Positions 26,751 through 26,900 of a DNA stretch of 64,000 nucleotides are shown here, piece after piece. The DNA is taken from the NCBI GenBank assembly GCA_016234935.1, contig JACRNL010000001.1, forward strand, positions 200,679 to 264,678. Direction: 5' to 3'. The stretch is from Deltaproteobacteria bacterium. GTDB taxonomy: Bacteria > Desulfobacterota > GWC2-55-46. A program made the position numbers and the translations under genes. The notes beneath the pieces are model-generated. The model ran no database searches. It was not told the DNA's origin and was given only the letters and a program-made list of their open reading frames with translations. Within the stretch, counting starts at the first letter, position 1, and every line of letters starts with the position of its first letter.

Positions 26751-26900
26751 GATTGCTGAAAAACTCATATGCTCATCCAGGCTGCTCAAAAAGCCTCAGA
26801 TACAAGGCGTCAAGGAGCGAGAAATGAGGCGTGCTTTTGGGCACGCCGCAATGTCGAGCAACGAAGACAACGCAGTAGATGAGACTTTTTCAGCAGCCTG
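26751..26900. repeat. Composite ~150-bp repeat element, family E copy 1 (TIR-like arms caggctgctcaaaaagc / gctttttcagcagcctg)
   Basis: About 75% identical to 59750-59898. It sits 15 bp upstream of the argB start in the same orientation as copy 2 relative to sthA. Internal hairpin cgtgcttttgggcacg. Confidence 0.7.

What the first reader, a model, noticed from the sequence alone, without database searches (positions are those of the whole stretch)
26751..26900. A ~150-bp composite element sits about 15 bp upstream of the start codons of three unrelated minus-strand genes (argB, sthA, YHS gene), always in the same orientation
- Copies at 26751-26900 (before argB) and 59750-59898 (before sthA) are about 75% identical over about 150 bp.
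- A chimeric relative at 19411-19570 (before the YHS gene) shares the ends but has family-C repeat material inserted.
- In every case the element begins 12-15 nt upstream of the gene's ATG. It directly abuts the Shine-Dalgarno of sthA and the YHS gene; argB has no recognisable Shine-Dalgarno.
- The same end (gattgctgaaaaa / cctgctgaaaag) always faces the gene.
- TIR-like arms (caggctgctcaaaaagc versus gctttttcagcagcctg) suggest a MITE. The fixed position and orientation relative to start codons instead suggest a portable 5' leader or promoter module, or a structured cis-regulatory RNA.
Basis: seen in the sequence. Interest (0 to 1): 0.7.

Follow-up and report, generated by a model that had tools for sequence, protein, structure and literature searches.

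The report
IS5-type MITE, not a leader
The 150-bp repeat in front of argB, sthA and a small gene is a miniature non-coding transposon (MITE) of the IS5 family that inserts at CTAG/CTAA/TTAG sites, which is why it ends up wedged between one gene's stop codon and the next gene's ribosome-binding site; it is not a dedicated leader or promoter.

Summary
The repeat is real. Copies at 26749-26900 and 59748-59898 are 82% identical (E 1e-37). 19410-19576 is a rearranged copy, and 10084-10128 is a truncated copy in the opposite orientation.

Each full copy has three parts:
- a 16-nt end, CAGGCTGCTGAAAAAG;
- a ~123-nt rod hairpin closed by an internal inverted copy of that end;
- a ~12-nt spacer followed by a third copy of the end.

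More than 130 relatives turned up in MAGs labelled Deltaproteobacteria, Nitrospirota, NC10, Binatia, Acidobacteriota and others. Full copies there carry matching 4-bp flanking duplications (CTAG, CTAA, TTAG). The same 16-nt ends and the same duplication bound complete ~1.3-kb IS5-family insertion sequences: one on a Bradyrhizobium plasmid, the named relative ISAzs10, and at least 72 metagenome contigs.

The target contains TAG or TAA, so survivors sit at stop codons. In 77 of 117 copies a stop codon directly precedes the end, often next to a Shine-Dalgarno. Either end can face a gene start. About 45% of copies face a convergent gene's 3' end, and the two sthA homologues examined (76-77% identical) lack the element upstream.

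The same-orientation pattern is uninformative, because 53 of 57 window genes share one strand. The hairpin is kept by compensatory changes, and that remains unexplained.

Verdict: a MITE, a new member of a known kind.

The parts
26749..26900 (-). Full MITE copy between the hslU-like gene and argB (152 nt)
   Evidence: blastn pair E 1.4e-37; family nhmmer score 153.7; arm parsing. The target duplication is eroded (CTCC / TTTT).
26885..26900 (-). Left terminal inverted repeat ('5' arm') CAGGCTGCTGAAAAAG
   Evidence: Read. Identical 16/16 to both ends of the 1311-bp IS5-family element in L122.
26778..26793 (-). Internal inverted copy of the end (CTTTTTGAGCAGCCTG). It closes the 123-nt rod hairpin 26778-26900 with a conserved G-G mismatch.
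   Evidence: 176-nt region 26740-26915 (minus strand): MFE -64.1 kcal/mol, z -6.5. Hairpin 26778-26900 alone: -56.0 kcal/mol. Covariation on alignment A4.
26749..26763 (-). Right terminal inverted repeat ('third arm') TTTTTCAGCAATCTG, 14 nt beyond the hairpin.
   Evidence: In relatives the 4-bp duplication follows this arm.
59748..59898 (-). Full MITE copy filling the DUF1571-sthA spacer (151 nt). Arms at 59883-59898, 59776-59791 and 59748-59762. Flanks CCAA / CTAA (3 of 4 match).
19410..19576 (-). Degenerate copy between folK and the 112-aa gene. Mutated 5' arm at 19561-19576 (CAGGCTGACCTCAAGC), internal arm at 19423-19437, third arm at 19410-19421. The centre is replaced by two units of repeat family D9/D11.
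   Evidence: The folK ORF ends ...HSG* inside the mutated arm.
10084..10128 (+). Truncated copy: a 5' arm (CAGACTGCTGAAAAAG) plus about 30 nt. It is in the opposite orientation to the others and lies just 3' of a minus-strand gene.
   Evidence: I20; E 1.2e-4 on the + strand.

Best explanation
The element is a non-autonomous DNA transposon (MITE) derived from, and presumably mobilised in trans by, an ISAzs10-like member of the IS5 family.

Anatomy: its real ends are the 16-nt inverted repeats CAGGCTGCTGAAAAAG ... (C)TTTTTCAGCA(A/G)CCTG. One end with its adjoining ~45 nt has been duplicated in inverted orientation. The left 123 nt therefore form a rod hairpin, and the true right end sits ~12 nt beyond it.

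Mechanism: the DDE transposase cuts and pastes the unit into YTAR tetranucleotides (CTAG, CTAA, TTAG) and duplicates them.

Inference: these sites contain TAG or TAA, and the duplication restores the stop codon. Insertions at a stop codon, or at a stop-codon/Shine-Dalgarno junction inside an operon, should therefore be tolerated and persist. That would place copies flush against a stop codon on one side and 5-30 nt from the next start codon on the other.

What is shown and what is inferred:
- Shown: anatomy, duplications, identical ends on complete IS elements, positions and orientations.
- Inferred: trans-mobilisation in this organism, and the selective filter.
- Judging from their 82% identity and eroded duplications, the window copies are old.
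For: - A genome scan with the arm pattern found at least 119 loci. nhmmer found 137 copies. 112 have both hairpin arms and 49 have a recognisable third arm.
- Three-arm copies have identical 4-mers on both sides in 15 of 46 cases against 4.6 expected from permuted flanks (p<5e-5). These include CTAG/CTAG, TTAG/TTAG, CTAA/CTAA and CTGG/CTGG.
- L122 (Bradyrhizobium ottawaense pBoOO86) holds a 1311-bp element with both ends 16/16 identical to the window arm, flanked TTAG...TTAG. It encodes a 363-aa transposase scoring 276.7 bits on NCBIfam IS5_4 (cut-off 140), with Pfam DUF772 + DDE_Tnp_1.
- ISAzs10 (L123) has CAGGCCGCGGAAAAAG ends and a TTAG duplication.
- At least 120 metagenome contigs carry this exact end followed by the transposase motif. 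72 are complete with both flanks, and 51 of those have identical duplications, 45 of them CTAG.
- E. coli IS5 insertion sites are CTAA/CTAG (PMC11677980).
- A stop codon immediately precedes the 5' arm in 77 of 117 copies (TAG 51, TAA 17, TGA 9; TGG only 6). It closes an ORF of at least 60 codons in 51.
- Right flanks read CTAAGGAG, TTAGGAG and CTAGGGAG.
- Tandem-gene contexts: sense 31 vs antisense 15 for all copies, and 14 vs 10 for three-arm copies. 13 copies lie between convergent genes.
Against: - Neither window copy has an intact duplication: CCAA/CTAA for the sthA copy, none for argB.
- No ISAzs10-like transposase was found in the window or in the 119 genome loci (tblastn). No sampled IS shares more than ~45 nt with the MITE interior. 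The direct parent and a partner in this genome are therefore not shown.
- The hairpin is maintained by compensatory substitutions across species-level genomes. A decaying selfish element recognised only at its ends would not be expected to show that.
- There is a mild excess of the orientation in which the hairpin directly follows the stop codon: 12 of 18 vs 4 of 15 for three-arm copies, my count from the per-copy distances listed.
- The arm pattern used for the scan forces arm conservation, so that conservation is partly ascertainment.
- Gene calls are my own crude caller. Only ten of them were checked, all neighbours of antisense copies.
Confidence: 0.9

Rival explanations
1. Portable 5' leader or promoter module: the element supplies a promoter, leader or ribosome standby site to the gene it precedes, and is kept in a fixed orientation for that reason.
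For: - In the window three copies end 14-30 nt before a start codon with the same end facing the gene.
- In that orientation a U-rich, largely unpaired stretch of ~27 nt (spacer plus third arm) separates the rod hairpin from the SD.
- There is a mild excess of sense orientation in relatives: 31 vs 15.
Against: - No sigma-70-like promoter in either copy.
- 53 of 57 window genes are on one strand.
- A fourth copy is inverted and lies 3' of a gene.
- In relatives either end faces a start (7 vs 6 of 47; genes verified).
- 28 of 62 copies with both neighbours called have a convergent gene on the third-arm side.
- The two sthA homologues examined (76-77% identical) lack the element upstream.
- The proximity to SD is explained by the YTAR target.
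Confidence: 0.05
2. A MITE whose hairpin has acquired a host-level role as structured RNA inside operon transcripts (3'-end protection of the upstream cistron, RNase III processing, or decoupling of translation), as reported for Correia and ERIC elements. The structure would then be under selection.
For: - Compensatory change keeps the rod. In Nitrospira-type copies 88.2% of cells are paired against 79.8% in shuffles, 24 of 45 pairs have double changes, and 0 of 500 shuffles reach this.
- In the window's own subfamily the figures are 89.4% vs 83.4%, 15 of 42 pairs, and 0 of 500 shuffles on four of five measures.
- Subfamilies track lineage labels, which suggests long residence.
- There is an excess of copies with the hairpin directly after a stop codon.
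- Correia RNase cleavage and IHF effects are documented (PMC10969869). Compensatory change is reported in bcr1 repeats (PMC3184786).
Against: - The strand opposite to the one defined as sense here folds better as RNA in 99 of 110 copies (mean 7.4 kcal/mol). G-U pairs are not enriched on the sense strand (256 vs 314). Nothing therefore points to the mRNA-sense strand as the selected one.
- Both orientations occur.
- Palindrome correction by template switching, or a hairpin requirement during transposition, would give the same covariation.
- No expression data are available.
Confidence: 0.15
3. A REP/REPIN-like or IS200/IS605-type element moved as single-stranded DNA by a tyrosine (Y1/RAYT) transposase, with orientation set by the replication direction.
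For: - Long hairpin with compensatory change and long-term persistence within lineages.
- A conserved GTAG-containing stretch in the window copies.
- All intact window copies lie on one strand of a strongly strand-biased region.
Against: - Matching 4-bp flanking duplications are not made by Y1 transposases (established knowledge of IS200/IS605).
- The ends are identical to those of DDE-type IS5-family elements, which show the same duplication.
- Both orientations occur within tandem gene arrays.
Confidence: 0.03

Closest known systems
ISAzs10-like insertion sequences of the IS5 family (L122 Bradyrhizobium ottawaense pBoOO86, 1311 bp; ISAzs10 of Azospirillum sp. B510, 1307 bp)
   Same: - Terminal inverted repeats: 16/16 identical in L122, and 13-14 of 16 in ISAzs10.
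- 4-bp YTAR target duplication.
   Different: - Those elements are 1.3 kb and encode a DUF772 + DDE_Tnp_1 transposase.
- The window element is 151 nt and non-coding.
- It shares nothing beyond ~20 subterminal nt with any sampled IS.
- It carries a third, internal copy of the end.
E. coli IS5
   Same: Same IS family. Same insertion sites (CTAA/CTAG; PMC11677980) and, from general knowledge, a 4-bp duplication.
   Different: Different terminal repeats and a distant transposase. The L122 transposase matches NCBIfam model IS5_4; which model E. coli IS5 matches was not checked.
Correia elements (Neisseria) and ERIC (Enterobacteriaceae)
   Same: - 100-200-nt MITEs with inverted ends that fold into long hairpins.
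- They sit in short intergenic spacers and are co-transcribed with neighbouring genes.
- They can abut start codons.
   Different: - Unrelated sequence.
- Correia duplicates TA and has documented promoters, IHF sites and RNase III cleavage (PMC10969869). None of these was shown here.
- Those families are genus- or family-restricted, whereas this one is found under at least 8 phylum-level labels.
Chunjie MITE of Geobacter uraniireducens
   Same: A MITE in a deltaproteobacterium, inserted inside an operon without breaking it, with a very stable predicted hairpin.
   Different: 178-235 bp, 21-bp ends and 9-bp duplications (PMC3184786). It is a different family.
REPINs with their RAYT transposase
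   Same: Hairpin doublets that persist for long periods within lineages with the structure maintained.
   Different: REPINs are moved by a Y1 transposase without target duplication. This element has DDE-type ends and 4-bp duplications.

Membership tests
MITE (non-autonomous DDE transposon) | Terminal inverted repeats at both ends | tested here: met
   5' arm CAGGCTGCTGAAAAAG and third arm TTTTTCAGCA(A/G)CCTG in both window copies and in 49 of 112 parsed copies.
MITE (non-autonomous DDE transposon) | Direct target-site duplication flanking the ends | tested here: met
   In relatives, 15 of 46 flanks are exactly matching 4-mers against 4.6 expected (p<5e-5). In the window itself the result is only CCAA/CTAA (sthA copy) and none for argB, so it is inconclusive for those two copies.
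MITE (non-autonomous DDE transposon) | Small, non-coding, multi-copy and dispersed | tested here: met
   144-172 nt. Four copies in 64 kb. Many loci per MAG, for example at least 10 loci of DASPOZ01.
MITE (non-autonomous DDE transposon) | Autonomous element with the same ends exists | tested here: met
   L122. At least 72 complete copies with both flanks on metagenome contigs. Presence in the window's own genome was not tested; none was found in the window.
MITE (non-autonomous DDE transposon) | Presence/absence polymorphism at orthologous sites | tested here: inconclusive
   The syntenic sthA loci of two homologues (76-77% identical) lack the element upstream. However, gene order differs (an extra DUF302 gene), and no close strain was available.
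IS5 family derivative | 4-bp duplication of a YTAR site | tested here: met
   Left flanks: CTAG 30, CTAA 12, TTAG 9, TTAA 4. The same holds for the full IS copies. IS5 sites are CTAA/CTAG (PMC11677980).
IS5 family derivative | Partner transposase is an IS5-family DDE enzyme | tested here: met
   NCBIfam NF033581, 276.7 bits against a cut-off of 140. Pfam DUF772 + DDE_Tnp_1.
Cis-regulatory 5' leader RNA / riboswitch | Constant orientation and position upstream of the regulated gene | tested here: not met
   Both ends face starts, and 28 of 62 copies have a convergent gene on the third-arm side.
Cis-regulatory 5' leader RNA / riboswitch | Association with functionally related genes and conservation with orthologues | tested here: not met
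   Flanking genes include argB, sthA, PhoU, RibBA, ATP synthase gamma, thiolase, MnmE and QueG. The two sthA homologues examined lack it.
Cis-regulatory 5' leader RNA / riboswitch | Structure supported by covariation | tested here: met
   This does not discriminate, since DNA hairpins and palindrome correction give the same signal.
Any Rfam family | Match to a curated covariance model | tested here: not met
   0 hits at gathering score on the whole window and 0 at E<=1 on the element.
REP/REPIN (RAYT-dependent) or IS200/IS605-type element | Insertion without target duplication, mobilised by a Y1 transposase | tested here: not met
   4-bp duplications are present. RAYT genes were not searched for.

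The most novel reading that the evidence does not exclude
The rod hairpin is not a by-product. It would be under long-term selection in several bacterial phyla, making this a persistent, REPIN-like MITE lineage. Its structure would serve either its own propagation or the host, for example as an operon-internal RNA element that follows the stop codon and insulates or stabilises cistrons. On this reading the window's arrangement (hairpin, then a U-rich unpaired tail, then SD) would be the favoured, functional orientation.
Probability: 0.15. Interest if true: 0.55.

Novelty: new member of a known kind. Interest (0 to 1): 0.3.

Why it matters
- For annotation, it removes a false lead. The repeat should be masked as a mobile element and not modelled as a regulatory RNA of argB or sthA.
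- It gives a simple rule for why some bacterial MITEs appear to 'know' where genes start: a YTAR target overlaps stop codons and stop/SD junctions.
- The family is widespread in uncultured soil and groundwater lineages and could serve as a marker of IS5-type activity there.
- It supplies stop codons and even C-terminal codons to neighbouring genes (folK here).
- The open point of wider interest is why a DDE-type MITE keeps a 123-nt hairpin by compensatory change.

Tried and rejected
- **Rfam:** a gathering-score scan of the window and a permissive scan of the element both found nothing.
- **Promoters and terminators:** no promoter. The terminator-like hits are only sub-stems of the hairpin.
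- **Literature:** a full-text search for the arm sequence returned only unrelated primer matches.
- **Chunjie:** considered as the same family and rejected on end length and 9-bp duplications.
- **Source contig:** the first look-up by exact sthA product found nothing on record. The protein search then identified the source as a Deltaproteobacteria MAG.
- **Transposase nearby:** tblastn of the IS5 transposase against the window and the 119 loci gave no hit.
- **Direct parent IS:** blastn of IS ends against MITE interiors found nothing beyond ~45 nt.
- **Structure across all subfamilies:** sequence-only alignment gave a poor consensus structure. Covariation was therefore counted per subfamily with a structure taken from one member.
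- **Strand test:** folding energy and G-U counts did not favour the mRNA-sense strand.
- **SECIS/readthrough idea:** considered for the stop-codon adjacency and dropped, because all three stop codons occur and the duplication explains it.
- **tRNA explanation for the 63-nt inverted matches:** rejected.

Full report
**1. What is in the window**

blastn aligns 26751-26900 with 59750-59898 at 82% identity over 150 nt, E 1.4e-37. An ungapped 141-nt pair at 80% was also found.

Read on the minus strand, each copy has four parts:
- a 16-nt arm, CAGGCTGCTGAAAAAG;
- about 91 nt of interior;
- an internal inverted arm, CTTTTTGAGCAGCCTG;
- a 13-14-nt spacer and a third arm, TTTTTCAGCAATC...

The first two arms close a 123-nt rod hairpin. 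The 176-nt regions containing it fold at -64.1 and -57.4 kcal/mol, z -6.5 and -3.4. Visibly compensated differences between the two copies include GGCGUGC/GCACGCC against GACGUGC/GCACGUC.

The third copy (19410-19576) is genuine but rearranged. Its centre is replaced by two units of another repeat family and its spacer is lost. A family profile also finds a truncated 5' arm at 10084-10128 on the plus strand. That is the opposite orientation, just 3' of a minus-strand gene.

argB probably starts at GTG 26719 behind a GGAGG (read; domain position). On that reading the 'no Shine-Dalgarno' remark does not hold. This start is my inference.

By a crude caller, 53 of 57 genes in the window lie on the minus strand. 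Three copies sharing the orientation of 'their' genes is therefore not evidence of anything. Each copy is equally downstream of another gene: hslU-like, DUF1571 and folK.

**2. Relatives**

One scan of species-representative genomes used only the two hairpin arms as the pattern. The MAGs are labelled Deltaproteobacteria, Nitrospirota, NC10/Methylomirabilota, Rokubacteria, Binatia, Acidobacteriota, Gemmatimonadota, Eisenbacteria and others.

A profile built from the window copies recovers 137 copies. 112 have both hairpin arms, and 49 have a third arm at the same place as in the window, for a total length mostly 149-153 nt.

Subfamilies follow the lineage labels:
- The 21 sequences of alignment A3 are all from Nitrospir* MAGs except one unlabelled.
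- The 21 of A4, which include the window copies, are all 'Deltaproteobacteria'.

The window itself comes from a Deltaproteobacteria MAG (identical SthA).

**3. It is a transposon with IS5-type ends and target**

Three-arm copies are flanked by the same tetranucleotide on both sides in 15 of 46 cases, against 4.6 expected when flanks are permuted (p<5e-5). The matches include TTAG/TTAG, CTAA/CTAA and CTGG/CTGG as well as CTAG/CTAG. The flanks fit YTAR.

A plasmid search with one copy hit a 25-nt stretch next to an unannotated transposase fragment in Bradyrhizobium. The intact relative on B. ottawaense pBoOO86 has these features:
- 1311 bp long;
- both ends identical 16/16 to the window arm;
- flanked by TTAG...TTAG;
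- encodes a 363-aa protein that passes NCBIfam IS5_4 (276.7 bits, cut-off 140), with Pfam DUF772 + DDE_Tnp_1.

The named relative ISAzs10 has CAGGCCGCGGAAAAAG ends and a TTAG duplication.

A metagenome scan for the exact end followed by the FRWF motif of the transposase found at least 120 contigs. 76 have both ends (1.28-1.37 kb) and 72 have both flanks. Of those, 51 have identical duplications, 45 of them CTAG. E. coli IS5 also inserts at CTAA/CTAG (PMC11677980).

Other MITEs with the same ends but unrelated interiors occur in Paracoccus plasmids and in several Acidobacteriota and Alphaproteobacteria loci.

**4. Why it sits where it sits**

The three bases immediately before the 5' arm are a stop codon in 77 of 117 copies (TAG 51, TAA 17, TGA 9, against TGG 6). 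In 51 of these the stop closes an open frame of at least 60 codons.

After the right-hand duplication the sequence often reads straight into a Shine-Dalgarno: CTAAGGAG, TTAGGAG, CTAGGGAG.

My reading (an inference):
- The YTAR target frequently is a stop codon, or the stop/SD junction of an operon.
- The duplication regenerates the stop.
- Such insertions are tolerated and survive.

For the sthA copy the flanks CCAA...CTAAAGGAAGAATG fit an original CTAA just upstream of the SD.

**5. Tests of the leader reading**

- Among copies with both neighbours called within 300 nt, contexts are tandem-sense 31, tandem-antisense 15, convergent 13 and divergent 3. For three-arm copies alone the tandem counts are 14 vs 10.
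- An SD plus start plus long ORF lies within ~35 nt beyond the third arm in 7 of 47 copies, and beyond the 5' arm in 6 of 47.
- Ten genes that start 5-30 nt from the 5' arm are real (PhoU, RibBA, ATP synthase gamma, thiolase, MnmE, QueG and others). Their Pfam domains begin within the first few residues in most cases.
- In the sthA loci of two homologues (76-77% identical, partly syntenic) nothing of the family lies upstream. Arm remnants lie downstream instead.
- No sigma-70-like promoter is present in either window copy. No Rfam family matches.

**6. What remains unexplained**

The hairpin is maintained by compensatory change.
- A3: 88.2% of cells paired against 79.8% in shuffles; 24 of 45 pairs changed on both sides; 0 of 500 shuffles reach this; slid controls give 33-50%.
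- A4: 89.4% against 83.4%; 15 of 42 pairs; 0 of 500 on four of five measures.
- Caveats: the structures were taken from one member of each alignment, and the sequences are related.

An IS5-type transposase should need only the ends. The cause could be a hairpin requirement in transposition, palindrome correction by template switching, or an RNA role, and it is open.

Nothing singles out the mRNA-sense strand. The opposite strand folds better in 99 of 110 copies, and G-U pairs are not enriched on the sense strand.

There is a mild excess of copies in which the hairpin directly follows the stop codon. Part of this is ascertainment, because degenerate third arms go undetected.

No partner transposase was found in the window or the genome loci. 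No sampled IS shares the MITE interior.

**7. Verdict**

This is a MITE of the IS5 family, ISAzs10-like by its ends and target. It is a new member of a known kind. No description of it turned up in a full-text search for the arm sequence. The leader, promoter or riboswitch reading is not supported.

Noticed in passing
window 19561-19576 with folK 19569-20075 (minus strand): The folK (HPPK) reading frame runs into the mutated 5' arm of the degenerate copy and ends ...HSG*. The last codons and the TGA stop are supplied by the arm (CAGGCTGA).
   Followed up: partly
window, whole: 53 of 57 crude gene calls are on the minus strand, an unusually one-sided 64-kb stretch.
   Followed up: no
window 2724, 2832, 3171, 3803, 6674-6928, 11332, 26923-26961, 33425, 34674, 35317, 43536, 47225, 54632 (starts): A different, very abundant family of short G+C-rich palindromes with 18-nt periodicity (GGGGTTCAACCCC / GGGGCTCAGCCCC) occupies at least 16 intergenic sites. 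One lies directly beside the argB copy.
   Followed up: no
window 26986, 29288-30082, 29881, 30902, 32808, 33033-33728, 34581, 37173: A second palindrome family (CAGGGTGTCACACCCTG) is clustered between 27 and 37 kb.
   Followed up: no
window 19450-19477, 19514-19541, 20117-20144, 39190-39217; inverted at 18066-18094: A third repeat family (GCCTGCCCTCGCGTGTCTAAAGCGGGGG). Two of its units replace the centre of the degenerate MITE copy.
   Followed up: partly
window 5211-5273 / 22386-22448 and 5289-5351 / 49296-49358: 63-nt inverted matches at 84% complementarity, of the CTCTCCCCTCGCGGGAGAGGGTCGGGTGAGGGGG type. They are not tRNA genes.
   Followed up: partly
L121 3007-3156 (Paracoccus versutus pBEN) and loci L015, L017, L033, L036, L046, L047, L049, L053, L057, L068, L071, L077-L079, L088, L102, L107, L112, L114: MITEs of 95-150 nt with the same 16-nt ends but unrelated interiors. 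The Paracoccus one, read in full, has an interior unrelated to the window hairpin. They occur in Alphaproteobacteria, Acidobacteriota, Sericytochromatia and a gammaproteobacterial MAG, which suggests that one transposase clade has spawned several independent MITE families.
   Followed up: partly
L245 3384-3545: Downstream of an sthA homologue there are two miniature derivatives. One is a ~40-nt hairpin (GTTGAAAAAGTCC...GGACTTTTTCAAC) directly after the TAA stop. The other is TTAG-CAGGCTG-TTTTTCAACAGCCTG-CTAA, which looks like a MITE reduced to its two ends (an internal deletion or excision footprint).
   Followed up: no
L101 1346-1470 and 1486-1610: Two hairpin copies in tandem, only 15 nt apart.
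   Followed up: no
alignment A2 (110 hairpins): The apex motif CGTAC-loop-GTACGCC(T)C and a G-G mismatch in the middle of the closing arms are kept in nearly all subfamilies, while the mid-stem is hypervariable but paired.
   Followed up: partly
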